Assembly (NCBI GenBank): GCA_964487045.1 | Contig: CAZAOT010000001.1 | Span: 4,875-68,874 of the forward strand | From: an uncultured Candidatus Saccharibacteria bacterium | Lineage (GTDB): Bacteria > Patescibacteriota > UBA1384 > DTJR01 | Length of the DNA: 64,000 nt | Direction of reading: 5' to 3' | Part shown: one piece after another, positions 2,819 through 44,644 of the stretch | Layout: each line of letters begins with the position of its first letter | Numbering within the stretch: position 1 is the stretch's first letter | Position numbers and translations under genes: made by a program | The notes under the pieces: generated by a model | The model's database searches: none | Seen by the model: only the letters and a program-made list of their open reading frames with translations | What the model was told of the DNA's origin: nothing

Positions 2819-4666
2819 TCAAGAATTAATTTGCTTTTTAAGACTTAGAAAAACACTTTCCGGAATTTTTTCTTCCAGGGTGCTAACATCGCCAAGATCC
2901 TTGTTTTCTAAAGCGGCTTTAAGTAGTCGCCGCATAATTTTTCCGGACCTGGTTTTGGGTAAGCTATCGATAAATATAATATTTGATACGGCGGCAAACT
3001 TACCAATCGAATTGACGATTAGCTGCTTGATCTCGGACTCAATATCAGCCTCTCTCGCATTTTTTAACTTAACAGCGAAGACAATTATCTGCTCTCCCTT
3101 GATGCTATCTTCAAAACCGATCGCGGCTGATTCGGCGATGAGTGGGTGCAGGTTAATAACGCTTTCTATCTCGGGTGAGCTAAAGCGGTGACCGGCAACT
3201 TTAATAACATCATCGAAACGGCCAAGGATATAAATATCGCCGTCTTTGTCTCTGGTCGCAAAATCTCCTGTTAAATAGCAGCCTTTGAACTTGCTAAGGT
3301 ATGAGTTGATGAATCTTTTTTGGTCTTTATAGATTCCAGTGGTCATTCCAGGCCAAGGCTGGTCAATCACTAGATATCCTTTTTGGCCAGTTGATGCTTG
3401 TCGACCACTTTCGTGAAGTACCTTAACCGACAAGCCTTGAAGAGGCTTGGTAGCCGATCCAGGTTTTTGCTTCTTAGGGCCATCTTTGCGGGGCGAGATA
3501 ATCACTCCACCGGTTTCGGTTTGCCACCAAGTATCAGCAATAGGGCATCTCCCCTGGCCGATCACATCGTGAAACCATTGCCAGGCTGATTTGTTGATAG
3601 GCTCACCGACAGAGCCGAGTTGTCTAAGGCTGGGTAAGTTGATCTTGGTCTTGTCTTCCTCGGCGAATTTCTTGAGCATCCGAATGGCGGTTGGCGAGGT
3701 ATAGAAAATGTCTATTTTATGTTTCTTGATTAGGCGGTACCAGATTTGTCTGTCTGGATAGTCAAGCGTACCTTCTTGCAGAAAAATCGTTAATCCATGC
3801 ATCAGTGGTGCGTAAGTAACATAAGAGTGTCCAGTTATCCAGCCGATATCTGCTGAGCACCAATAAACTGATTTTTGGTTGAAGTCGAAAATTTGCTCAA
3901 AGATCGAATAATTATGTACCAAATATCCGCCTACACGATGGACAATCCCTTTTGGCTTGCCAGTGGAGCCGGAGGTATAGAGAATGAAGATTGGATCGTT
4001 TGAGTCCATTTGCTCAGGTTCTACGTTTTCTTGCCCGATTGATTTTGACAAATTCTTAAAGCCGATACTTCTGCCTTTTGTGGTGAATTTTTCTCGATCA
4101 AAAATCAGTACTTTTTTGACACATTTAACTCCCCTCACAGCCTGATCTACATTTTCCTTAAGGCTGATTTTTTTGCCCCGTCTGTAAGAGATATCACAAG
4201 AGATCACTAACTTGCATGATGTCTCTTCGATCCGCTCACGAAGTGCCTTGGGGCTAAAACCCGAGAAAACAACATTGTGGACGGCGCCAAGTCTTGTGCA
4301 GGCAAGCATTGCAATTATTGCCTGAGGGATCATCGGCATATAAATAGTGATGATGTCACCCTTCTTTGCCCCAAGGCGTTTAAGACAAGCGGCCCAAAGA
4401 TTTACCTCTCTAAGTAAGTCATTGTAGCTAAGCTTAAGCATTTCGCCCGTCTCTGATTCCCAGATAATGGCTGTTTTTGTGCCATGGCCTTTGCTCACTT
4501 GCCAATCAATGCAAACACTCGAAGGATTAATTTTTCCTCCGATAAACCAATCAGTCTTGTTTCCTGATTGCCGGGCGACTTTAGTAAAATTTTGCGCCCA
4601 AGGAAGTTTTCGCCCCTCTTTATCCCAAAATATTTGGCTTTCCTTGCTTAGCTTGTTCATAGTCAT
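2819..4666 (-). CDS. acs: acetyl-CoA synthetase (AMP-forming acyl-CoA ligase family)
   Basis: 615 aa; AMP-binding motif YTSGSTGKPKG, WWQTETGG and C-terminal GRFDDVIKVAGHR typical of Acs. Confidence 0.75.
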   Translation of the reverse strand: MTMNKLSKESQIFWDKEGRKLPWAQNFTKVARQSGNKTDWFIGGKINPSSVCIDWQVSKGHGTKTAIIWESETGEMLKLSYNDLLREVNLWAACLKRLGAKKGDIITIYMPMIPQAIIAMLACTRLGAVHNVVFSGFSPKALRERIEETSCKLVISCDISYRRGKKISLKENVDQAVRGVKCVKKVLIFDREKFTTKGRSIGFKNLSKSIGQENVEPEQMDSNDPIFILYTSGSTGKPKGIVHRVGGYLVHNYSIFEQIFDFNQKSVYWCSADIGWITGHSYVTYAPLMHGLTIFLQEGTLDYPDRQIWYRLIKKHKIDIFYTSPTAIRMLKKFAEEDKTKINLPSLRQLGSVGEPINKSAWQWFHDVIGQGRCPIADTWWQTETGGVIISPRKDGPKKQKPGSATKPLQGLSVKVLHESGRQASTGQKGYLVIDQPWPGMTTGIYKDQKRFINSYLSKFKGCYLTGDFATRDKDGDIYILGRFDDVIKVAGHRFSSPEIESVINLHPLIAESAAIGFEDSIKGEQIIVFAVKLKNAREADIESEIKQLIVNSIGKFAAVSNIIFIDSLPKTRSGKIMRRLLKAALENKDLGDVSTLEEKIPESVFLSLKKQINS

Positions 4667-36828: not shown

Positions 36829-37230
36829 ATATCGATTCTGCTATAATTAATCTGTACTAATTTTTCTGCAAAACATTTACTTCTGCGTGAAGTATCTCAA
36901 AAGAGGGGGCACCCCGATTAAATTTACATATTTAACGGGTCGAGGTGACGTACTTTTTTCGCCTAAAATCTGATAGGTAATCGTTCAGTCTCGCCTGGCA
37001 CCCTATTGCATAGCGCGATAGAACTATCACAAGTCTAACAACCTCTTTTTGCTCGCTTTGTTAAAGTCGAAATCATTTCTTTGGTTTTTACAAAGTAGAG
37101 CTAAGCGAAACCAGTCGCTATTATTAGTTTTTTGTTCGAAGGAGGGGAAAATTCGGCAATTGTTTTGTTAGTGATTTTTTTCATACTAATGAGTGGGCGG
37201 TAAGATTTTAAAAAATATTTAAACAAAAGA

Positions 37231-37264
37231 GGCGGGAGCGAAGGGGTTGCCCTTCGCTCCCGCC
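37231..37264 (-). terminator. rho-independent terminator for minus-strand small-protein operon
   Basis: 14-bp stem GGCGGGAGCGAAGG/CCTTCGCTCCCGCC; on minus strand followed by TCTTTTGTTTAAATATTTTTT. Confidence 0.65.
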
Positions 37265-37270
37265 GGGATG

Positions 37271-37423
37271 CTACGCGCTTTTCGCGCGCTTGATGTGGTA
37301 GGCGAGTGAGATGATGGCGCACACCCCACAGAAGAATGGGATTGCGCGTATGTGCTCACCTCCATAGGCCTCAATAAGGCCGCCAGTGACCAGCGATAGA
37401 ATCGAATAGCCCAGAAGACTCAT
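37271..37423 (-). CDS. small hydrophobic protein (50 aa), G+C-rich cassette
   Basis: ATG 37423 preceded by AGGAGTA; translation MSLLGYSILSLVTGGLIEAYGGEHIRAIPFFCGVCAIISLAYHIKRAKSA done by hand. Confidence 0.45.
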   Translation of the reverse strand: MSLLGYSILSLVTGGLIEAYGGEHIRAIPFFCGVCAIISLAYHIKRAKSA

Positions 37424-37433
37424 CGTGATACTC

Positions 37434-37709
37434 CTATTCTAATCCCAGAGTTGCTCCGCCGGCAAAGCGGCGTTCTGTTTCAGCGAGGAGAGCCTTTCCC
37501 TCGATCGTCACCATGTTGTCCGACATGATTCCTTGCTTGTCTGGACAAATGATGAGTTCTGCTTCGCCTGTCAGTCTGACTTCAGCGGAACTCGTTTCCG
37601 CTATCTCGACAAAAAGAGGTGGCTCGTGTGAGCCAGACTTATTCTTCAGACAGACCCAGATACGCGAGCCGACAGGTTGGCGCCTGAGGTCGAAGAAGTT
37701 TAGCTTCAC
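37434..37709 (-). CDS. small soluble protein (91 aa), G+C-rich cassette
   Basis: GTG 37709 preceded by GAGGAGGTAG; GTGA overlap with upstream gene stop; MKLNFFDLRRQ...GATLGLE. Confidence 0.4.
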   Translation of the reverse strand: MKLNFFDLRRQPVGSRIWVCLKNKSGSHEPPLFVEIAETSSAEVRLTGEAELIICPDKQGIMSDNMVTIEGKALLAETERRFAGGATLGLE

Positions 37710-37927
37710 GCTACCTCCTCGCTTGACGCTTCGGCTGTTTCTTCTCTTCTTCCTCTGAACGAAGAGATGATGGCAAGGCCGCCACAGAAGATGCAATTGC
37801 CGCTTGCGAGGAGAGTCACTGAGACTGGCACGTCCTGCTTGATGTAGAGAATACCGAGCAGGACAAGTCCCATGGCGATTAGTCCGAGACCGCTAAGGAT
37901 CAGGCTTATATCCGGTTTGTATTTCAT
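37706..37927 (-). CDS. small membrane protein (73 aa), G+C-rich cassette
   Basis: ATG 37927 preceded by AAAGGGAAAG; two TM helices (LILSGLGLIAMGLVLLGILYI, CIFCGGLAIISSF). Confidence 0.45.
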   Translation of the reverse strand: MKYKPDISLILSGLGLIAMGLVLLGILYIKQDVPVSVTLLASGNCIFCGGLAIISSFRGRREETAEASSEEVA

Positions 37928-37942
37928 TGGTGCTTTCCCTTT

Positions 37943-38077
37943 CTAGCGCGTGAATGCGAACTGGGGAAGGTGCTGCCAGGCGAGAGCAATGGCAGCACAG
38001 AAGATGATCACTAGTCCTACCAAGGCGAGGTAGGCCGGCAGATTGTGCCTTTCTGATTCTAGGAATCTTAGTCGCAT
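37943..38077 (-). CDS. small membrane protein (44 aa), G+C-rich cassette
   Basis: ATG 38077 preceded by GGGAGAGGGAT; MRLRFLESERHNLPAYLALVGLVIIFCAAIALAWQHLPQFAFTR. Confidence 0.4.
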   Translation of the reverse strand: MRLRFLESERHNLPAYLALVGLVIIFCAAIALAWQHLPQFAFTR

Positions 38078-38244: not shown

Positions 38245-38321
38245 GCACCCGTAGCTCAGCTGGATAGAGCGTTGGCTTGCGGAGCCAAAGGTCGTAGGTT
38301 CGAATCCTATCGGGTGTACCA
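38245..38321 (+). tRNA. tRNA-Arg, anticodon read as GCG
   Basis: 77-nt cloverleaf: acceptor GCACCCG/CGGGTGT, D-arm GCTCAGCTGGATAGAGC, anticodon stem TTGGC/GCCAA with loop UUGCGGA, T-arm GTAGGTTCGAATCCTAT, CCA encoded; close to E. coli tRNA-Arg by eye. Confidence 0.8.
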
Positions 38322-38322
38322 G
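38301..38322 (+). repeat. direct repeat DR-L (tRNA-Arg 3' end CGAATCCTATCGGGTGTACCAG)
   Basis: exact 22-nt match to 41187-41208. Confidence 0.85.
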
Positions 38323-39776
38323 TACGGAAATGTCAAATTTTGGGAGTTTGCGCCGCCTGCGGCGGCGACTAAATTGTAGGGAATTTTTGCTTCAAAATGC
38401 CACTTTCGATTCTGTAAGAAATGGTTCGAGCCGATATTTTTGAGAAATGTTAGAATTTCCGAATAATCTTCGGAATTTTTTAGTTTATCTGCTTTGGCAA
38501 GCGATAAAATGAACTCTTTGGCCGGTTCGAGCCAAGACAATCCTTTTTGTTCAAAATCTGTAATTTTTTCGTTAATCTCCAGCTTTTCGCTAAGTAGCTT
38601 TTGTTTTCGCAAAGTATATTCTTCGGTTGTAATGACTTCGCTCAGATATACATCGAGTAATTTTTCAAGCTGTTTCGTAATTTCTTCGAGCTTTACTTTG
38701 AGATTTTGAACAGAAGTTTTAGCCAACGTTCTTGCTTGAGTTTCTTGTTTCTCTAATTCAAACAAAACTTTTTTGGTATCTTGGCTCGACAAAGAAACTT
38801 TTTGTAAATACCCATTTATTTGCTCAACGAGTTTTTCTTCTCGCAGATAATGCTTTTCTTGGCAACCACTTTTCTTTTTTGTGCATCGGTAATAGTTGTG
38901 GCCTTTTTGTATTTCGGCAGTAATCGCACAGCCGCAACTTTTACATTTCATAAGCCCAAGAAAAGCAAAATGATGTTTTTCCTTTTTGCGAGGCTTGCCA
39001 CGATCTTTCAATACTTCTTGGCATTTATCAAAAAGTTTCTTTGGGATTATCGGTTTGTGTTTTCCTTCGTATATTTCGCCGTTATATTTCATTAGCCCAA
39101 TGTAGAAAATATTTTGTAGAATTGAATTGATATTGCTGATAGAAATCCTCTTGTTGAGATTCCCGAATAACATGTCATCTTCCGCCCAATTTGCGAGAGA
39201 ATTAAAGGTATATTTGCCGGTTGAATAGAGCTCAAAAAGCTTTCTGACTTTTCTAACCTTTATTTCGTCGACATCAATATTTCTTGTTCTCGGATTATTT
39301 ATATAGCCAACCGGCGCCCAGCCGGGCCAAACTCCATTTCGTATTTTTTGCCTTAACCCTCGTTTTACATTCTCTCGCAAATTGTCTACAAAATATTTTG
39401 ATTGACCAAAAGCAATGTTCAACATGAAAATCCCTTGAGGTGTTGGTTCAAACCAGAACGAAGGAAAACACAAGGATTTGATTTTCTGCCGGTCTATCAT
39501 GTGGATTATCTTTCCACCGTCTACACTATTTCTTGCTAACCTGTCAGGGTGCCAACTCAAAATCCCTTCCGCCTTTCCTTTTTCGATCAATTCTAACATT
39601 TCAGCGAACTTCGTTCGACCAGGTTCTTTGGCAGTTTTGGCTTCGCACAGCGAAGCGACAATTTCAAGTTTTTCTTTGGCGGCAAATTCCCGAAGCTCAA
39701 CTAGTTGAGCTTCAATCGAAAGAACTTGTCTGTCATCATCTTCAGTACTTTTGCGAGCGTAAATTATGTAGCGCAT
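38307..39776 (-). CDS. large serine recombinase (resolvase N-terminal domain, zinc ribbon, coiled coil)
   Basis: MRYIIYARKSTEDDDRQVLSIEAQ catalytic-Ser N-terminus, CKSCGC...YYRCTKKKSGC zinc ribbon, C-terminal coiled coil; start ATG 39776 preceded by AAGGAGGAAA; 3' end runs through IR1-L and 15 nt into tRNA-Arg. Confidence 0.8.
   Translation of the reverse strand: MRYIIYARKSTEDDDRQVLSIEAQLVELREFAAKEKLEIVASLCEAKTAKEPGRTKFAEMLELIEKGKAEGILSWHPDRLARNSVDGGKIIHMIDRQKIKSLCFPSFWFEPTPQGIFMLNIAFGQSKYFVDNLRENVKRGLRQKIRNGVWPGWAPVGYINNPRTRNIDVDEIKVRKVRKLFELYSTGKYTFNSLANWAEDDMLFGNLNKRISISNINSILQNIFYIGLMKYNGEIYEGKHKPIIPKKLFDKCQEVLKDRGKPRKKEKHHFAFLGLMKCKSCGCAITAEIQKGHNYYRCTKKKSGCQEKHYLREEKLVEQINGYLQKVSLSSQDTKKVLFELEKQETQARTLAKTSVQNLKVKLEEITKQLEKLLDVYLSEVITTEEYTLRKQKLLSEKLEINEKITDFEQKGLSWLEPAKEFILSLAKADKLKNSEDYSEILTFLKNIGSNHFLQNRKWHFEAKIPYNLVAAAGGANSQNLTFPYWYTR
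38316..38415. repeat. inverted repeat IR1 left copy (about 100 bp)
   Basis: near-perfect reverse complement of 39817-39916 (2 mismatches); begins with GTACCAGTAC overlapping the tRNA 3' end. Confidence 0.85.
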
Positions 39777-39816
39777 TTTCCTCCTTTTAATTTCATAAAA
39801 ATTTTCTTTTACAATC

Positions 39817-39916
39817 ACAGAATCAAAAGTGGCAATTTGAAGCAAAAATTCCCTACAATTTAGTCGCCGCCGCAGGCGGCGCAAACTCCCAAAATTTGAC
39901 ATTTCCGTACTGGTAC
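39817..39916. repeat. inverted repeat IR1 right copy
   Basis: reverse complement of 38316-38415; ends CCGTACTGGTAC. Confidence 0.85.
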
Positions 39917-40004
39917 TCTATCCTGAAAATTGTTCGAACGTATTTTGGCCGCGAAGCGGCCGAGAAAACACCCCCGAAAATTCCCGACTGAAATTCTGAA
40001 CTTT
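39910..40004. repeat. inverted repeat IR2 left copy (about 95 bp)
   Basis: perfect reverse complement of 40970-41064; starts CTGGTACTCTATCC, shares CTGGTAC with the end of IR1-R. Confidence 0.85.
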
Positions 40005-40161
40005 CAAAACTGCCAAAGAATCTGTTTCAAAAATATCGGCTCGAATCCATTAGTTTGTAAAAGAAAATTTTTATTAATTCAATCAGCACTGATTGATTTT
40101 TTATTCTTCTTGGTATATGCTTTTATTCAACAATCGAAAGCAGAAATATTGAGTTTCTCAA

Positions 40162-40184
40162 TTTCCTGCTTTCGAAGCAGGAAA
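40162..40184 (+). promoter_or_regulatory. perfect 10-bp stem / 3-nt loop hairpin in leader of cargo gene
   Basis: TTTCCTGCTT-TCG-AAGCAGGAAA read directly; not followed by a T-run. Confidence 0.35.
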
Positions 40185-40225
40185 ATCTCTGTACAGGCCA
40201 CAAGGCCGTGCAAGGAGTGAGAACA

Positions 40226-40846
40226 TTGTCTAAGGTCAACAGTATCCAGCTCACGTGTCTCAAGCCGAATGACTGTTCCACCCGACTTGCTCTTCCCGAA
40301 GTCACCTACGACTTTCGGGTGTGGGCTATCATCAACGACCTTGAGAAGGCCGTTGAGAAGGCGGGCGGTGCAACGCTCGCAGTCTTCGCGGGTGTTCCGT
40401 GGGAGTACGGGAGCCGCTCGGTCAACTTTCTCAACTATGTGGCCGAGATGGTGGTGAGAACAAACCGCGGCAAAGGGGAATTCATCGGAAGAAGCTATCT
40501 TGCGAGTGGCGGGATGTCACGGCTCGCAAGCTTGATGAAGGACGTTCGGCCAGACGGACAGATCAGAGCTGTGGTCGACCAAATCACGCGAACAATCTGG
40601 TCCGACCAGCCGATCCCGCGCGGTTTGCCCGACAATCTCTGGTACGAGCAGACGGACTACGAGTCGTTCTGCATCAAGTCGGGCAAAGGTGACATCATCA
40701 GGTGGGTTCCCGAGAATCAAGTTCAGGAGGAGCGGACGATGGGATTTCTCCGCTTGGAGTTTGAGGAGCCCTCTGTCAAGCACTTCTGTCAGCTAATTCA
40801 ACAGCTACATCGCTTTCCGGGTGTGGCCGAGTTCGCCAACGGCTAG
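40226..40846 (+). CDS. hypothetical protein, G+C-rich cargo of IR2 cassette
   Basis: AGGAG 8 nt before in-frame TTG 40226 (MSKVNSIQLTCLKP...); no recognisable domain; composition contrasts with A+T-rich recombinase gene. Confidence 0.5.
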   Translation: MSKVNSIQLTCLKPNDCSTRLALPEVTYDFRVWAIINDLEKAVEKAGGATLAVFAGVPWEYGSRSVNFLNYVAEMVVRTNRGKGEFIGRSYLASGGMSRLASLMKDVRPDGQIRAVVDQITRTIWSDQPIPRGLPDNLWYEQTDYESFCIKSGKGDIIRWVPENQVQEERTMGFLRLEFEEPSVKHFCQLIQQLHRFPGVAEFANG

Positions 40847-40869
40847 CTGTAGACCGGAGTACAAGCAAC

Positions 40870-40899
40870 AGGCAGACCAGCAGTGGCCTGCCTTTTTTC
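40870..40899 (+). terminator. possible rho-independent terminator
   Basis: AGGCAGACC...GGCCTGCCT imperfect stem then TTTTTTCTTG. Confidence 0.4.
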
Positions 40900-40969
40900 T
40901 TGCCGCCAAAGGAGAAATCTGCTAAGATTTCTCTAGTGAGCGAAGCTCACTAAAAAACTTGAAATTGTC

Positions 40970-41064
40970 AAAGTTCAGAATTTCAGTCGGGAATTTTCGG
41001 GGGTGTTTTCTCGGCCGCTTCGCGGCCAAAATACGTTCGAACAATTTTCAGGATAGAGTACCAG
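40970..41064. repeat. inverted repeat IR2 right copy
   Basis: reverse complement of 39910-40004; ends GGATAGAGTACCAG. Confidence 0.85.
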
Positions 41065-41186
41065 AATAAAATTTGCCCCTCGCGGGCTAATTTTATTATT
41101 TGGGAACCATAGGATTCGAAGGCCGCAGCGAGCGTAGGCGAGCGAGGCGGGGTCGATGAATTTGCCAGCAGGCAAATATCAGTGAC

Positions 41187-41208
41187 CGAATCCTATCGGG
41201 TGTACCAG
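41187..41208 (+). repeat. direct repeat DR-R (copy of tRNA-Arg 3' end)
   Basis: exact 22-nt match to 38301-38322, followed by hairpin ATATGAC...GTCATAT and T8 that looks like the native tRNA terminator. Confidence 0.85.
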
Positions 41209-41288
41209 AATATGACCCCGCACAAGTGGAGTCATATTTTTTTTATTGATGTTGTTTGATGAGCGGGGTAAAATTAAATAAATAATTA

Positions 41289-42305: not shown

Positions 42306-42717
42306 CTTTCTTACTAAATTGTAGCAAAAATTCTGATAAGTAAATACCTTTTAAAATTTTGATTATTATGCTTGCTTTAGCGTGGTTTATCTGGTAAAAA
42401 ATGCATATCACGACCATGTTCGAAGGATGGTGAGCAGATGGCCAGGCATATGAGTTGGCGTAAAGGTGGTCGGGCGAGACCCAAGAGGTGTCACCGAGAG
42501 CAACCGGGTCACCCCGATCCGCAAGGTGCCCAGTGGCGTCACGAACGGTACATCGAGCAGATGCGCGCAAGCCTGAAGCCGGGACAGCTTGAGGCCCTTC
42601 AGGCGCTCAGCCACGGTTACCACAGGTACCGATGAACCACGAGCGCAGTCGTATCCAGAGTCTCAAGCTGGTCTTGTACCGGCGCGAGACTCTTCTTCTT
42701 TAATGATTGATTTTCCG

Positions 42718-43452
42718 TTATTTCTCTTGCCACACTTCTGTGATTACCTGTCTATTTTTTTTGAGGCCCGAACTTAGTGCCCAGCCATCTGCGGTTACAA
42801 ATGCGCATGCGGACTCGCCCCTTCCTCTGGGAATGATTTCTGCAGTTGGGGAAATTGCTCTTACGGATGCGACGGCTTGTTGTAAATCCTTTGTATCAAC
42901 TCGGGGAGAAAAAATAGTGTCGAGAACCTTGAATTGACTTTGCTTTACAGACTCGCCAATATGAGCGATTTGCTTTGCTGGAAGTCGGTATAGGATATGA
43001 CTTAGTAAAATAAAGAACTGGCCATCTTTTTCTAGACGCATCATTAGTGGGCAACAGTCCTTGGCTCTATCAGTATAAGCGCTAACACCACTGTCTGCTG
43101 GTAGAATAACAGCTGCGCTCCAGTTACTTTCATCAATGTAAACAACTTTTCCATCTTTATTTGAAAAAACAGGCATCTCTCCAGAATTATATGATCGAAT
43201 TGTTTGCCCATTCTCATCTTTAATATCCTCTATGGGTCCCTCGATCACAAATTGTTTATCTAAAGTTTCAGTCGGGCCTTCTCCTGAAAATATCATAACT
43301 TTAATGTTGCGGTACTGGTCCAGGATTTTTGCTCTTTTTTGTTCATCGTTAGGATCTTCGGGGGCAGCAGGTGCGCTTGGTATCTCCGTCATACGTTGAT
43401 CGTTAGGGGAAAGATTTTCTGGGTCTATCTGCGAGCGGCTTTCGTTAAGCAT
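42718..43452 (-). CDS. hypothetical protein
   Basis: 244 aa, acidic/proline-rich N-terminus, no motif. Confidence 0.4.
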   Translation of the reverse strand: MLNESRSQIDPENLSPNDQRMTEIPSAPAAPEDPNDEQKRAKILDQYRNIKVMIFSGEGPTETLDKQFVIEGPIEDIKDENGQTIRSYNSGEMPVFSNKDGKVVYIDESNWSAAVILPADSGVSAYTDRAKDCCPLMMRLEKDGQFFILLSHILYRLPAKQIAHIGESVKQSQFKVLDTIFSPRVDTKDLQQAVASVRAISPTAEIIPRGRGESACAFVTADGWALSSGLKKNRQVITEVWQEK

Positions 43453-43496: not shown

Positions 43497-43586
<90 letters not shown>

Positions 43587-43677: not shown

Positions 43678-43706
43678 TTGATTGTATGGGTATATTCTAG
43701 TATTAT
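43678..43706 (+). promoter_or_regulatory. sigma70-type promoter TTGATT-N17-TATTAT
   Basis: -35 43678-43683, -10 43701-43706, 17-nt spacer; same -35 hexamer as promoter at 27767. Confidence 0.5.
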
Positions 43707-43750
43707 GACGTGACGAGAATTCGCGTTCATTACAGAGGAGAGAGTGCCAT

Positions 43751-44179
43751 ATGTGTAAGAAACTGATATTTGCTAGTACGCTGGCACCGAAACTCTACTG
43801 CTTGTGCACACCGAGTGAGGAGTTGCTGGAGGTCTTGCTTGAGCGTGCCAAGGACGATGAGTGTCGCGCCGAGCCACTTATGGTGGCCGAACAGGAGATC
43901 GAGTTCGGGCCAGCCAACTATCTTTATGACGAGGCCCGCATGCGCGTCTGTGAGGCTAGTGCAGGCATGGCTACGGTCATGATCCAGGTCGGTAGTCATG
44001 CTGATGGAATTCGATCAGTGCTTGTGCCTGTTGGCGAGAAGGAGGGTGATGACGAAGCCCTGCCTGAAGGGGCTTTGATGCCAGGTATCGGTTGCCCGAT
44101 GGAATGTCTGCTGGGCCTGGGGCTGTTTTGTCTCGTGATCAAAGGCGGCATTTGCGCCGTCCATTATCTGCTCGGCTAA
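43751..44179 (+). CDS. hypothetical cysteine-rich protein with hydrophobic C-terminus, G+C-rich cassette
   Basis: GAGGAGAG SD before ATG; 142 aa with CxC, C-rich C-terminal segment GIGCPMECLLGLGLFCLVIKGGICAV. Confidence 0.45.
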   Translation: MCKKLIFASTLAPKLYCLCTPSEELLEVLLERAKDDECRAEPLMVAEQEIEFGPANYLYDEARMRVCEASAGMATVMIQVGSHADGIRSVLVPVGEKEGDDEALPEGALMPGIGCPMECLLGLGLFCLVIKGGICAVHYLLG

Positions 44180-44200
44180 TGGCCGGGAGGGGAGTACAGC

Positions 44201-44512
44201 ATGTCTTTGTTTGGCAAAAAGGGAGAGCCGAAGCCGCCTAAGGTGAGGAAGGAGCGCAAGCCGCGCGCTCCGATCACCAAGGAGCGAGTCTTTGAAGGGT
44301 TGTTGGCTTTTGGCCGCAACCTGTTGCTGGTAGTGACCGTCGTAGGCATCTTGGCGCTCTCGGCGCTCGTCTACGTCCTGTTCCAGAAGATCGGCGGCGG
44401 CAGTAGCGACCCAGCAACGAAGAACCTGATTCTCGTCGCGACTGCGATGACGGCCGGAGGCGGCTTTTTCACGCTCTGGCTCGGCCGCACCTGGGGCATC
44501 ATCCCGTACTAG
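44201..44512 (+). CDS. small membrane protein with lysine-rich N-terminus, G+C-rich cassette
   Basis: 103 aa; KPPKVRKERKPRAP then two TM helices. Confidence 0.45.
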   Translation: MSLFGKKGEPKPPKVRKERKPRAPITKERVFEGLLAFGRNLLLVVTVVGILALSALVYVLFQKIGGGSSDPATKNLILVATAMTAGGGFFTLWLGRTWGIIPY

Positions 44513-44535
44513 GGCTGATGCCTGCGAGCATCTTT

Positions 44536-44576
44536 GGCGGTTTGTCCGGTCACCCGGACAAACCGCCTTCTTTTTT
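44536..44576 (+). terminator. rho-independent terminator
   Basis: perfect 14-bp stem GGCGGTTTGTCCGG/CCGGACAAACCGCC, loop TCAC, TTCTTTTTT tail. Confidence 0.8.
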
Positions 44577-44644
44577 AAAAACAAAAAAATCGCCCTTTGG
44601 CGAAATAGAGTTCTCTCGTTCTTAGCTCTTAGTTTTTAGTTTTT

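What the first reader, a model, noticed from the sequence alone, without database searches (positions are those of the whole stretch)
38245..41220. Composite element in tRNA-Arg: serine-recombinase cassette and a cargo cassette, each bracketed by its own ~100-bp inverted repeats, with GTACCAG/CTGGTAC junction motifs
Seen directly in the sequence.

- The last 22 nt of tRNA-Arg (38301-38322) recur exactly at 41187-41208. Only after the second copy does a hairpin plus T8 follow, as expected downstream of a tRNA. About 2.9 kb therefore appears inserted into the tRNA 3' end.
- Inside, the large serine recombinase gene is flanked by a near-perfect 100-bp inverted repeat (38316-38415 / 39817-39916).
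- A second, unrelated, perfect 95-bp inverted-repeat pair (39910-40004 / 40970-41064) flanks a G+C-rich orphan gene. That gene has its own Shine-Dalgarno, a TTG start and a 10-bp leader hairpin.
- Every junction sits on the same motif: GTACCAG|TAC at the tRNA/IR1 junction, GTA|CTGGTAC at the IR1/IR2 junction, and GTACCAG|AAT at both the IR2 end and the distal tRNA copy. If the recombinase cassette were removed, tRNA end plus IR2 would form the perfect palindrome GTACCAGCTGGTAC.

Large serine recombinases normally use short att sites with a 2-bp crossover, not tRNA 3' duplications or 100-bp inverted repeats, and the recombinase is A+T-rich like the host while the cargo is G+C-rich. Whether this is a nested insertion, two invertible or excisable cassettes, or a recombinase-driven cassette-capture site cannot be decided from sequence alone. 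It is an unusual and cleanly delimited architecture either way.
Basis: seen in the sequence. Interest (0 to 1): 0.88.

Follow-up and report, generated by a model that had tools for sequence, protein, structure and literature searches.

The report
Two-module serine-recombinase element at tRNA ends
The window holds one copy of a very common, apparently undescribed mobile element of the tiny CPR/Patescibacteria bacteria: a serine-recombinase module plus a one-gene cargo module, each framed by 100-bp inverted repeats, inserted exactly at the 3' end of a tRNA gene.

Summary
In detail: tRNA-Arg, the 22-nt repeat, both ~100-nt inverted repeats and the GTACCAG junctions are all where stated.

It is not a one-off. 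About 80 related loci show the same layout. Reading leftward from the tRNA 3' end, it is [b arm, one cargo gene, b' arm][a arm, large serine recombinase, a' arm][tRNA 3' end].
- Ten kinds of tRNA are used.
- The junction motif is the last ~6 nt of the tRNA (core T). It occurs three times in alternating orientation.
- The middle junction is the reverse complement of the joint that excision would create, so it is a spare attP.
- The b' arm mimics a tRNA 3' half, with its TTCGAA motif 5 bp further out. That is the known attP/attB geometry of large serine recombinases.
- Cargo is hypervariable (35 unrelated proteins in 38 loci) and sits in a conserved frame built from recombinase-gene fragments.
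- A conserved promoter spans the a/b junction.
- Identical recombinases abut different tRNAs, so recombination at T is recent.

Best reading (confidence 0.55): one bipartite element that integrates as a unit. It is not two nested insertions.

The 22-nt repeat and the 122-nt spacer are specific to this window and remain unexplained. No circular form was seen.

The parts
38245..38321 (+). tRNA-Arg(gcg), the integration target. Its 3' end (T-arm to CCA) acts as the attB-type left half-site.
   Evidence: ARAGORN; Rfam RF00005, 69.8 bits.
38316..38322 (+). Core T, copy 1 (GTACCAG): last acceptor base pairs, discriminator, CCA and one further G. Junction tRNA/a arm (attL-like).
   Evidence: three-site comparison.
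38316..38415 (.). IR1 left arm ('a' arm next to the tRNA). It also encodes the last ~33 codons of the recombinase.
   Evidence: Homologues stay conserved through this arm up to ...LTFPYW, then read into antisense tRNA.
38307..39776 (-). Large serine recombinase gene (489 aa). The catalytic Ser lies in MRYIIYARKST.
   Evidence: Pfam PF00239, PF07508, PF13408; thousands of CPR homologues at 69-87% identity; Y6, R8 and S10 invariant.
38425..38443 (-). 'K' segment (codons for FLKNIGSN). Synonymous variation is suppressed here. It is copied in the cargo module at 40027-40045.
   Evidence: I5, 19 nt, 100%; codons 441-451, entropy 0.23 against a mean of 0.59.
38790..38804 (.). One arm of a 15-nt perfect inverted repeat inside the recombinase ORF (CAAAGAAACTTTTTG), about codons 320-333. 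Synonymous sites are nearly frozen.
   Evidence: I13; entropy 0.11-0.16.
39029..39043 (.). Partner arm of the intragenic 15-nt inverted repeat, about codons 242-252.
   Evidence: I13; entropy 0.20-0.25.
39620..39685 (-). N2 (39620-39639), a 17-nt hairpin (39640-39656) and N1 (39657-39685) in recombinase codons ~31-52. Nucleotide-level constraint is strong. Both flanks are copied at the inner ends of the cargo-module arms.
   Evidence: I6, I7, I15; codons 31-40, entropy 0.09-0.13.
39787..39814 (-). Recombinase 5' leader/promoter-like segment (TTGTAAAAGAAAATTTTTATGAAATTAA), followed by AAGGAGG and the ATG. A copy sits upstream of the cargo gene.
   Evidence: I3; sequence read; conserved in all cargo modules.
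39817..39916 (.). IR1 right arm (a').
39910..39916 (-). Core T, copy 2, inverted (CTGGTAC). The junction a'-T'-b is the reverse complement of the predicted excision joint b'-T-a, so it is an intact attP-like site.
39896..39924 (+). Junction promoter reading into the cargo module: -35 TTGACA in the a' arm, a 17-nt spacer across the core, -10 TATCCT in the b arm.
   Evidence: 10 of 12 matches. The same arrangement is found in 50 of 57 loci with a 17-nt spacer and is absent at tRNA junctions.
39910..40009 (.). IR2 left arm (b).
40005..40082 (+). Conserved 5' frame of the cargo module, made of recombinase-gene fragments: N2-like (40005-40024), K-like (40027-40045) and leader/promoter-like (40055-40082).
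   Evidence: I6, I5, I3; conserved in the same order in all 38 cargo modules; co-varies with the element's own recombinase gene.
40208..40846 (+). Cargo ORF. It is 212 aa from the GTG, or 206 aa from the TTG at 40226 with AAGGAG 8 nt upstream. It is G+C-rich and has no family.
   Evidence: no Pfam hit; the only match among 5.8 billion proteins is a 100%-identical copy of itself; composition.
40866..40899 (+). Hairpin plus T-run downstream of the cargo ORF, a likely terminator.
   Evidence: sequence read. The scan reported this stem-loop on the minus strand.
40900..40969 (+). Conserved 3' frame of the cargo module. It is an N1-like recombinase fragment split in two (40900-40916 and 40953-40969) by two small hairpins.
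   Evidence: I15, I7; alignment (TTGCCGCCAAAGAAAAACTTGAAATTGT in all loci).
40965..41064 (.). IR2 right arm (b'). With core T it mimics a tRNA 3' half: TTCGAA lies 19 nt before CCA, against 14 nt in the real tRNA.
41058..41064 (+). Core T, copy 3 (GTACCAG). This is the distal end of the conserved element (attR-like, b'-T-flank).
   Evidence: In L061 and L072 this end lies within a few bases of the 5' end of the next tRNA.
41065..41186 (+). 122-nt highly structured spacer of unknown origin. It is not part of the conserved element.
   Evidence: no relative in any of ~95 loci and no Rfam match; MFE -60 kcal/mol for 41065-41208, which includes the 22-nt tRNA-end copy.
41187..41208 (+). Second exact copy of the last 22 nt of the tRNA plus G. 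It is specific to this window. It may be the displaced native tRNA end left by an older event.
   Evidence: D2; no equivalent in other loci.
41209..41245 (+). Hairpin plus T8, the probable native terminator of the tRNA gene.
   Evidence: sequence read.

Best explanation
Window 38316-41064 is one copy of a bipartite integrative element that is widespread in CPR/Patescibacteria. It has two modules. R holds a large serine recombinase (LSR) gene between two 'a' arms. C is a one-gene expression cassette between two 'b' arms. A short core T, the last ~6 nt of the target tRNA, stands at both ends and between the modules, in alternating orientation: tRNA-T-a-R-a'-T'-b-C-b'-T-flank.

Inferred mechanism:
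- The recombinase recombines an attP-type site (b'-T-a) with the 3' end of a tRNA gene (attB).
- In attB the T-loop TTCGAA and the acceptor end serve as the left half-site.
- In attP the b' arm presents the same motif 5 bp further out.
- The crossover lies in the first ~3 nt of T. The element therefore hands the tRNA a new discriminator and CCA.
- Because the cores alternate, only a pair of modules lies between directly repeated cores. The excisable unit is thus R+C, a circle carrying two inverted copies of the same site. This would explain why R is almost never found without a partner module.
- Recombination between inverted cores can flip R.
- The a'/b junction forms a promoter that, together with a recombinase-derived promoter inside C, drives the cargo gene.

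Shown: the architecture, its conservation, the use of many tRNAs, the 5-bp offset, the cargo diversity, the junction promoter, the cis-constrained segments, and recent recombination at T.

Inferred: the circular intermediate, which sites actually recombine, the position of the crossover, and how new cargo genes enter the frame.
For: - Same architecture elsewhere: 4 genome loci and ~80 metagenome loci from many samples.
- Arm identity: IR1 detected in 71 loci, median arm identity 99%; IR2 in 38 loci, median 98.5%.
- tRNA abutment: a tRNA 3' end abuts the recombinase 3' end in 46 of 63 loci, with ten tRNA types. Of 120 homologue C-termini, 100 either run into antisense tRNA or stop within 5 aa, as the window's does.
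- Pairing: a b arm abuts a1 in 59 of 63 loci; no solo R was seen.
- Core: T is shared by all three junctions and changes with the tRNA.
- Site geometry: the TTCGAA-type motif lies 19 nt from CCA in b' arms (25 of 37) and 14 nt in tRNAs (28 of 36). This matches the 5-bp attP/attB shift of the zinc-ribbon-domain motif (PMC3783163).
- Recent recombination: five recombinases identical up to ...RWY carry five different tails. In L089/L090/L091 about 3 kb is ~99.9% identical, then diverges exactly after TGGTAC into three different tRNAs.
- Inversion: R is found flipped in L053 and L066.
- Arrays: multi-module arrays with d and e arms exist.
- Promoter: junction promoter in 50 of 57 loci.
- Enzyme: the domain set is that of an LSR.
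Against: - No circular or tandem junction (N1-b'-T-a-recombinase 3' end) was found in any contig.
- Canonical LSRs do not recombine attP with attP or attL with attP. They also need a directionality factor for excision. No such gene is present in the 2.75 kb.
- If either of the two identical sites on a circle could be used, or if C could flip, both C orientations should occur. Only one is seen (39 of 39), and R is about 90:10.
- The right half of the presumed attB (the sequence downstream of the tRNA) is not conserved.
- Arms of 100 nt at ~99% identity are far longer than an LSR needs. Their homogenisation is unexplained.
- The three-site comparison does not give one consistent 2-nt crossover. 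L045 and L049 conflict.
- L089-L091 share the same left flank. That fits exchange of the tRNA junction, or chimeric assembly, better than simple transposition.
Confidence: 0.55

Rival explanations
1. Two independent small circles inserted one after the other at the tRNA end. Each would carry a ~200-bp perfectly palindromic attachment site (a'-core-a for the recombinase circle, b'-core-b for the cargo circle). Opening a palindrome at its centre automatically gives 100-bp terminal inverted repeats.
For: - The junction sequences are compatible. CATTTCCGTACTG-GTAC-CAGTACGGAAATG and GGATAGA-GTAC-TCTATCC are perfect palindromes.
- It explains the near-identity of the arms.
- In cargo modules the recombinase C-terminal fragment is fused directly to the recombinase leader. 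That is what a recombinase circle would look like after losing its a-palindrome.
Against: - An autonomous recombinase circle should often be found alone at a tRNA. Instead 0 of 63 loci are recombinase-only, and 59 of 63 have the b arm on the recombinase's 5' side.
- Module order and cargo orientation are fixed (39 of 39). A symmetric palindromic site would give random orientation.
- In L089-L091 the same cargo travels with the same recombinase.
Confidence: 0.12
2. A module-exchange system like the Xer pdif modules of Acinetobacter plasmids. Modules bounded by inversely oriented sites are swapped between elements by pairs of site-specific crossovers (cassette exchange), not by excision and insertion of a whole element.
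For: - Cores alternate in orientation, and each module carries its own kind of arm (a, b, d, e).
- Arrays have different module sets: C-R-d, C-R-e, tRNA-R-d, C2-C1-R.
- The a1 and a2 arms are mosaic, with differences confined to the ~30 nt next to the core.
- One recombinase sequence is joined to several different neighbours.
Against: - Cargo diversity does not break at the cores. The breakpoints lie inside the module, right after the promoter and right before N1.
- The module frame co-varies with its own recombinase gene.
- Exchange alone does not explain first arrival at ten kinds of tRNA.
Confidence: 0.2
3. A fixed, domesticated invertible switch. The recombinase only flips its own segment, or its neighbour, to regulate expression next to a tRNA gene. 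The locus is inherited vertically.
For: - Inverted cores flank the recombinase gene, and both orientations occur.
- There is a constrained cis element inside the 5' coding region, as with the Fis enhancer inside hin/gin (my knowledge of those systems).
- A promoter spans the junction.
Against: - The element sits at ten different tRNA types.
- Recombinases 69-87% identical are spread over many CPR phyla.
- Identical recombinases lie next to different tRNAs.
- Cargo is unrelated between loci.
- The enzyme is a large, not a small, serine recombinase.
Confidence: 0.05
4. An assembly artefact: inverted repeats created by mis-joining of reads.
For: - Many metagenome contigs end at or inside the arms.
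- L089-L091 could be chimeric across a repeat.
Against: - The same architecture, with different sequences, appears in ~80 independent contigs from many samples and assemblers, and in NCBI genomes.
- The arms carry conserved functional signals.
Confidence: 0.01

Closest known systems
Phage-type large serine integrases (Listeria A118/LI, Bxb1, phiC31) with attP/attB
   Same: Same domain set. The donor and target half-sites carry the same motif offset by 5 bp (PMC3783163). The shared core is short.
   Different: - Not on a phage; no close relative in IMG/VR.
- The target is the 3' end of any of many tRNAs rather than one gene.
- The arms are 100 nt and inverted.
- The integrated element keeps a complete inverted spare site.
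- There is no directionality-factor gene.
- Solved structures match only the catalytic domain.
Large-serine-recombinase transposons Tn4451/Tn5397 (TnpX, TndX) and SCC elements (CcrAB)
   Same: A large serine recombinase appears to be the only mobility gene of a cargo-carrying chromosomal element that uses many or conserved targets. For Tn4451 a promoter formed at a junction is known from my own knowledge; here.
   Different: Those elements are 6-60 kb. They have no 100-nt inverted arms, no internal inverted site and no tRNA targeting. Their ends carry a GA dinucleotide (from my knowledge). This element is 2.75 kb with one cargo gene.
pdif (XerC/XerD) modules of Acinetobacter plasmids
   Same: Discrete gene modules are bounded by inversely oriented recombination sites. 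Neighbouring modules share a site, and site orientation alternates along the array.
   Different: pdif modules rely on host tyrosine recombinases and 28-bp sites, and they sit on plasmids. Here a serine recombinase is encoded in one of the modules, the arms are 100 nt, and the array is anchored at a tRNA end.
Integrons
   Same: A recombinase is paired with single-gene cassettes of extremely diverse and mostly unknown function, expressed from a platform promoter.
   Different: Integrons use a tyrosine recombinase, and each cassette carries one attC site recombined as a folded single strand. Integron arrays are long. Here there is usually one cassette, flanked on both sides by inverted arms. New genes replace a fixed stretch inside a conserved frame.
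Serine DNA invertases (Hin, Gin, Cin, Pin)
   Same: Inverted crossover sites flank a segment that can contain the recombinase gene. A cis element lies inside the 5' part of the recombinase coding sequence.
   Different: Those are small recombinases with 26-bp sites and a Fis-bound enhancer, and they are not mobile between tRNA genes.
Yeast 2-micron plasmid (FLP) and other circles with two inverted repeats
   Same: The predicted free form is a small circle in which two identical inverted repeats separate two unique regions, one of them encoding the recombinase that acts on the repeats.
   Different: FLP is a tyrosine recombinase and the plasmid replicates autonomously. Here neither a replication function nor the circle itself has been seen.
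Tycheposons and other tRNA-targeting cargo islands
   Same: Small cargo-carrying elements in streamlined genomes, inserted at tRNA genes.
   Different: Those use tyrosine recombinases and direct repeats of the tRNA 3' part, and they have no inverted-arm modules.

Membership tests
Large serine recombinase (protein family) | N-terminal resolvase-type catalytic domain with the nucleophilic serine | tested here: met
   PF00239, E = 6.7e-22, residues 4-150. Y6, R8, K9 and S10 are invariant in 30 homologues.
Large serine recombinase (protein family) | Recombinase domain followed by a zinc-ribbon domain | tested here: met
   PF07508, E = 6.6e-14; PF13408, E = 1.2e-6, above the curated cut-off.
Large serine recombinase (protein family) | Coiled-coil motif inserted in the zinc-ribbon domain, which controls which sites pair | not tested
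   Residues ~330-440 look heptad-rich and helical by eye. No structure prediction was run.
attP x attB integration system of large serine integrases | The zinc-ribbon-domain motif lies 5 bp closer to the crossover in attB than in attP | tested here: met
   Met for the left half-site only. TTCGAA-type motif: 14 nt from CCA in tRNAs (28 of 36), 19 nt in b' arms (25 of 37). Rule taken from PMC3783163.
attP x attB integration system of large serine integrases | Donor and target share only a central 2-bp crossover | tested here: inconclusive
   The sequence common to all three junctions is 2-9 nt, most often GCACCA or GCAC. No single dinucleotide fits every locus.
attP x attB integration system of large serine integrases | Both sites are short (40-50 bp) and quasi-symmetric, with both half-sites recognisable | tested here: not met
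   The sequence downstream of the tRNA is not conserved between loci. The a and b arms show no significant mutual similarity. The arms are ~100 nt.
attP x attB integration system of large serine integrases | Excision depends on a separate directionality factor | not testable with these tools
   The only other gene is the hypervariable cargo, so no conserved candidate exists inside the element.
Serine DNA invertase systems (Hin/Gin type) | Small serine recombinase with a C-terminal helix-turn-helix | tested here: not met
   The protein has 489 aa and the domain set of a large serine recombinase.
Serine DNA invertase systems (Hin/Gin type) | A segment between inverted crossover sites is found in both orientations | tested here: met
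   The R module is flipped in L053 and L066. About 13% of homologue tails read into another arm instead of a tRNA. The C module is never flipped (39 of 39).
Integron | Tyrosine integrase IntI with attI, and cassettes each ending in an attC site | tested here: not met
   The enzyme is a serine recombinase. The cassette is flanked on both sides by inverted 100-nt arms.
pdif / Xer modules | 28-bp XerC/XerD binding sites as module boundaries | tested here: not met
   The boundaries are the tRNA-end core plus a, b, d or e arms. The resemblance is limited to alternating inverted sites.
Tn4451/Tn5397-type transposons | Excision to a circular intermediate and re-insertion by the same large serine recombinase | not testable with these tools
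   No circular joint was found among the contigs held. Recent recombination at T is shown.

The most novel reading that the evidence does not exclude
This may be a serine-recombinase counterpart of integrons and pdif modules that is specific to CPR bacteria. Under this reading, self-contained modules bounded by inverted arms and alternating tRNA-end cores are assembled into arrays at tRNA genes. A dedicated expression cassette, built from a circularly permuted and gutted copy of the recombinase gene and kept similar to it, takes up single foreign genes at two fixed breakpoints by a mechanism not yet known.

A further untested possibility concerns DNA uptake. A single strand of the element, as taken up by naturally competent CPR cells, could fold so that its two ends (T-a and b'-T) pair with the internal a'-T'-b. 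That would rebuild a double-stranded attachment site without second-strand synthesis.
Probability: 0.3. Interest if true: 0.9.

Novelty: new variant of a known kind. Interest (0 to 1): 0.8.

Why it matters
- CPR/Patescibacteria make up a large share of bacterial diversity. They have tiny genomes and few recognised mobile elements, and how they gain genes is poorly understood.
- This element is among the most common recombinase families in them: 7,836 of the 8,000 candidates scored were significant homologues, and the best 120 are 69-87% identical across many CPR phyla. Each copy delivers one foreign gene in a ready-made expression cassette.
- If the model holds, it is a main route of gene gain in these organisms. 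It would also be a natural example of a large serine recombinase that reads a structural feature shared by all tRNA genes, which is of interest for genome engineering.
- The embedded cis elements, the junction promoter and the fixed cargo breakpoints are concrete, testable handles.

Tried and rejected
- Direct repeats: I searched for a tRNA-end direct repeat beyond the cargo module in the related loci whose recombinase abuts a tRNA. None was found, so the 22-nt repeat is not a family feature.
- Phages: IMG/VR holds only 23-26% identical general recombinases, so the element is not phage-borne.
- Arm homology: local alignment of a against b arms in both orientations gave only short, weak matches.
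- Structure in the arms: the MAFFT alignment of a arms did not line up the variable hairpins, so I ran no covariation count on it. A ViennaRNA window scan timed out. A simple stem search supports a G+C-rich hairpin 30-36 nt from the core in b arms (6.5 bp against 4.3 in shuffles). In a arms the support is weak, because the common hairpin has tandem G-A mismatches.
- Terminator role: the arm hairpins are not followed by a T-run on either strand (read).
- Window 41065-41260: no match in any locus or elsewhere in the window, and no Rfam family.
- Source record: an exact look-up of the window's recombinase found nothing on record. The cluster table shows only that it comes from an NCBI record with a 320-kb contig.
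- Cargo protein: no family and no relatives.
- Literature: seven full-text searches on CPR taxa with serine recombinase, tRNA, cassette and inverted repeats found no description of this element. One of the seven was used to find the attP/attB geometry paper.
- Crossover position: I tried to fix one crossover dinucleotide from three-site comparisons. The result is ambiguous.

Full report
**1. The observation**

- tRNA-Arg(gcg) lies at 38245-38321.
- Its last 21 nt plus the following G recur exactly at 41187-41208.
- Two unrelated inverted-repeat pairs of 100 nt, each 98% complementary, lie at 38316-38415 / 39817-39916 and at 39910-40009 / 40965-41064.
- Probes from either arm match nowhere else in the 64 kb.
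- GTACCAG is over-represented in the window: 9 matches against 2.4 expected. It marks all four junctions.
- Between the first pair, on the minus strand, lies a 489-aa large serine recombinase with Resolvase, Recombinase and zinc-ribbon domains. Its reading frame runs through the arm next to the tRNA and stops inside the tRNA.
- Between the second pair lies a G+C-rich ORF of 206-212 aa. It has no family and no relative other than itself.

**2. It is a family, not a curiosity**

The recombinase has thousands of relatives at 69-87% identity. They are named, where named at all, from Berkelbacteria, Parcubacteria, Kuenenbacteria, Nealsonbacteria, Jorgensenbacteria and 'Patescibacteria group'.

I fetched 4 genome loci and 80 metagenome loci and compared each with itself.
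- In 71 loci the recombinase gene is framed by an inverted repeat of about 100 nt. Median identity between the two arms is 99%.
- In 46 of 63 loci with enough sequence, ARAGORN finds a tRNA whose 3' end overlaps the outer end of the arm at the recombinase's 3' end. The tRNAs are Leu, Arg, Ala, Lys, Gln, Ile, Met, Val, Tyr and Glu.
- In 59 of 63 loci a second kind of arm abuts the arm at the recombinase's 5' end.
- Where the contig reaches far enough (38 loci), that second arm has an inverted partner 575-1570 nt away.
- No locus shows a recombinase module alone between a tRNA and ordinary flank.

I call the arms a (recombinase module, R) and b (cargo module, C).

**3. The junction motif is the end of the tRNA**

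Printing all junctions shows that the motif changes with the target: GCACCA, CCACCA, GGAGCCA, GCAGCCA, GGACAC, and GTACCA here. It consists of the last acceptor base pairs, the discriminator and CCA. I call it core T.

It occurs three times: at the tRNA end, inverted between the a and b arms, and, fully or as its first 3-4 nt, at the far end of the b' arm. Written in the direction of the tRNA, the element is tRNA-T-a-R-a'-T'-b-C-b'-T-flank.

The middle junction a'-T'-b is the exact reverse complement of b'-T-a. That is the joint which recombination between the two outer, directly repeated cores would create. The integrated element therefore carries a complete spare copy of its own presumptive attachment site.

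The sequence common to all three junctions is 6 nt in many loci, but only GCAC, GCA or AC in others. This places the crossover in the first ~3 nt of T. It also implies that the discriminator and CCA at the tRNA end are supplied by the element. No single dinucleotide fits every locus.

In L061 and L072 the far b arm starts within a few bases of the 5' end of the next tRNA. The outer cores are therefore the true ends.

**4. Agreement with serine-integrase site logic**

The b' arm contains GTTCGAAC or GTCCGAAC. The distance from this TTCGAA-type motif to the CCA of T is 19 nt in 25 of 37 b' arms. The T-loop TTCGAA of the target tRNAs is 14 nt from CCA in 28 of 36. In this window the values are 19 and 14.

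A 5-bp outward shift of the same motif in attP relative to attB is what Rutherford et al. described for the zinc-ribbon-domain motif of the Listeria integrase (PMC3783163, read). With a crossover near tRNA positions 71-73, the motif would lie about 13-18 bp from the centre in the tRNA and 18-23 bp in b'. This is close to their 11-19 and 16-24.

I conclude, by inference, that b'-T imitates a tRNA 3' half in the donor configuration. The enzyme would recognise the T-arm and acceptor end common to all tRNAs, which explains the many targets.

The other half-sites do not fit the canonical picture. The sequence downstream of the tRNAs is not conserved, and the a and b arms are not similar to each other.

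**5. Evidence of recent recombination at T**

One 90%-identity protein cluster holds five recombinases that are identical up to ...NLTNSRWY. They then continue in five different ways: four as antisense translations of different tRNAs and one into another kind of arm.

Three of their contigs (L089, L090, L091) come from three samples. They are about 99.9% identical over ~3 kb, covering the left flank with three tRNA genes, a 175-aa cargo gene and the recombinase. They diverge exactly after TGGTAC into tRNA-Lys(ttt), tRNA-Arg(tct) and tRNA-Arg(cct).

The shared left flank means this is not simple transposition of the whole unit. Either the tRNA-side junction is exchanged between tRNA genes, as proposed for a plasmid integrase in Thermococcales (PMC5495485; seen only as a title and abstract in the results), or several copies exist and the assemblies are chimeric across the repeat. 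In both cases the breakpoint is at T.

**6. Orientation and arrays**

- Of the 120 best homologues, 72 end in antisense tRNA, 28 stop within 5 aa as here, and about 16 read into other arms.
- In L053 the recombinase module is flipped relative to the tRNA. In L066 it is flipped relative to the cargo module.
- The cargo module has one orientation relative to its cores in 39 of 39 cases.
- Further arm types exist. Type d has the consensus T'-N19-GAACCTATTTTCAAAAC. Type e begins T'-TCAATCGTAAACGATGTTAGAAC. They frame larger modules on the recombinase's 3' side.
- L077 has two cargo modules in a row.
- Cores alternate in orientation along these arrays. Because of that, only an even number of modules lies between directly repeated cores. 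This would explain why the recombinase module always travels with a partner.

**7. The cargo module**

- The longest ORFs of 38 cargo modules fall into 35 unrelated clusters.
- Those with a Pfam family include a short-chain dehydrogenase, an Asp/Glu racemase, a GNAT acetyltransferase, an asparaginase, a cyclodipeptide synthase, an APH-type kinase and HisG. Most have none.
- The G+C content of the module interior ranges from 0.29 to 0.55, against 0.35-0.44 for the recombinase module.
- The frame around the gene is conserved in every locus. In cargo direction it reads: T', b arm, N2 (recombinase codons ~47-52), K (codons for FLKNIGSN near the C-terminus), the recombinase's own leader/promoter, the cargo gene, N1 (codons ~31-40), b' arm, T.
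- The cargo module thus looks like a circularly permuted, gutted recombinase module. It is opened at a 17-nt hairpin in the N-terminal coding region instead of behind the C-terminus.
- Cargo breakpoints are sharp. For example, L043 and L061 are 98% and 96% identical in the two frame parts and unrelated in between.
- The frame fragments resemble the recombinase gene of their own element more than those of other elements (N2: 0.94 against 0.86), including synonymous codon differences.
- I cannot explain how new genes enter or why the frame tracks the recombinase gene.

**8. Cis elements**

- Synonymous-codon entropy in 60 recombinase genes averages 0.59. It drops to 0.09-0.13 at codons 31-40 (N1), 0.20-0.25 at 242-252, 0.11-0.16 at 320-333, 0.23 at 441-451 (K) and about 0.3 in the a arm.
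- Codons 242-252 and 320-333 are the two arms of a perfect 15-nt inverted repeat, window 39029-39043 / 38790-38804.
- The a arm always uses TTG for a conserved leucine. This TTG starts a -35-like hexamer, TTGAC[TA] or TTGCAA. Seventeen nt later, across the core, the b arm offers TATTCT, TATATT or TATACT. The arrangement occurs in 50 of 57 loci, and 86% have TAnnnT. Nothing comparable exists at the tRNA junction.
- In the window the hexamers are TTGACA at 39896 and TATCCT at 39919. A promoter reading into the cargo module is therefore assembled only where an a arm meets a b arm.
- Both arm types contain a G+C-rich hairpin about 30-36 nt from the core. Its sequence varies while its pairing is kept. 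Support is clear for b arms and weak for a arms.

**9. What remains specific to this window**

The 122 nt at 41065-41186 and the second tRNA-end copy have no counterpart in any other locus and no Rfam match. The 144-nt stretch 41065-41208 folds strongly, at -60 kcal/mol.

The simplest reading is a remnant of an older, different insertion that displaced the native tRNA end and its terminator. This is a guess.

**10. Verdict**

The finding is real and leads to a large family of small modular elements that I could not find described. The library searched is limited, so this is not proof of novelty.

The enzyme and the donor/target geometry place it among large-serine-recombinase integrative elements. 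Several traits set it apart:
- tRNA-end targeting;
- the alternating inverted cores;
- the obligatory pairing of modules;
- the recombinase-derived cargo frame;
- the junction promoter.

I rate the bipartite-unit model at 0.55. The main gaps are the unseen circular form, the fixed orientation of the cargo module, the length and homogeneity of the arms, and the way cargo is acquired.

Noticed in passing
window 41065-41208: A 122-nt spacer lies between the element and a second exact copy of the last 22 nt of the tRNA. Together the 144 nt fold to -60 kcal/mol. The spacer contains ATAGGATTCG, the complement of the CGAATCCTAT in the tRNA-end copy. It has no relative in any fetched locus and no Rfam family.
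   Followed up: partly
window 38790-38804 and 39029-39043 (recombinase codons ~320-333 and ~242-252): A perfect 15-nt inverted repeat (CAAAGAAACTTTTTG) lies inside the recombinase ORF. In 60 homologues the synonymous sites of both arms are almost frozen. The related motif AAAGAAA(N)TTTTT also occurs in the leader and in N1. Whether it acts as an RNA stem or a protein-binding site is unknown.
   Followed up: partly
L089, L090, L091 (about positions 3090-3135): The same left flank, cargo and recombinase (~99.9% identical) are joined at TGGTAC to three different tRNAs in three samples. This could mean recombinase-driven exchange or inversion between tRNA genes, or chimeric assembly across a multi-copy element.
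   Followed up: partly
L092 8440-15500: A different arm type ('e') lies next to the recombinase's 3' end. It leads into a module of more than 7 kb with an OLD-family nuclease (AAA_15/AAA_21/TOPRIM) and an N6/N4 DNA methyltransferase, which are defence-like genes.
   Followed up: no
L053 1871-5253; L093 9480-11898; L095 4172-4955: 'd'-type modules have long arms (at least 120 nt, 100% identical, cut by contig ends). The L053 and L093 modules carry two genes each. By eye, one of the two L053 proteins (598 aa) looks like a cell-wall enzyme and the other (366 aa) looks repeat-rich. The translated end of L095 looks like a transposase N-terminus by eye. None of these annotations was checked.
   Followed up: no
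L077 1-360 and L013 100-1600: L077 has two cargo modules in tandem, and the outer one uses a short a-type arm instead of a b arm. L013 has a tandem duplication of flank, distal b arm and N1.
   Followed up: partly
window 37100-38000, 42350-42800, 43700-44600: Further G+C-rich patches (0.52-0.59 against about 0.40) lie just upstream of tRNA-Arg and near tRNA-Ser(tga) at 43498-43586. They may be other foreign DNA near tRNA genes.
   Followed up: no
window 38245-38321: The acceptor stem of tRNA-Arg closes with a G1-U72 wobble (GCACCCG...CGGGTGT-A-CCA). Position 72 lies inside core T, which in the model is supplied by the element. The distal 22-nt copy carries the same base.
   Followed up: no
L014, L021, L028, L082, just beyond the a2 arm: tRNA-like 3' halves (for example CGGGTAGGATTCGAACCTAC) abut the element, but ARAGORN calls no tRNA. 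These may be tRNAs with introns, or disrupted tRNAs.
   Followed up: no
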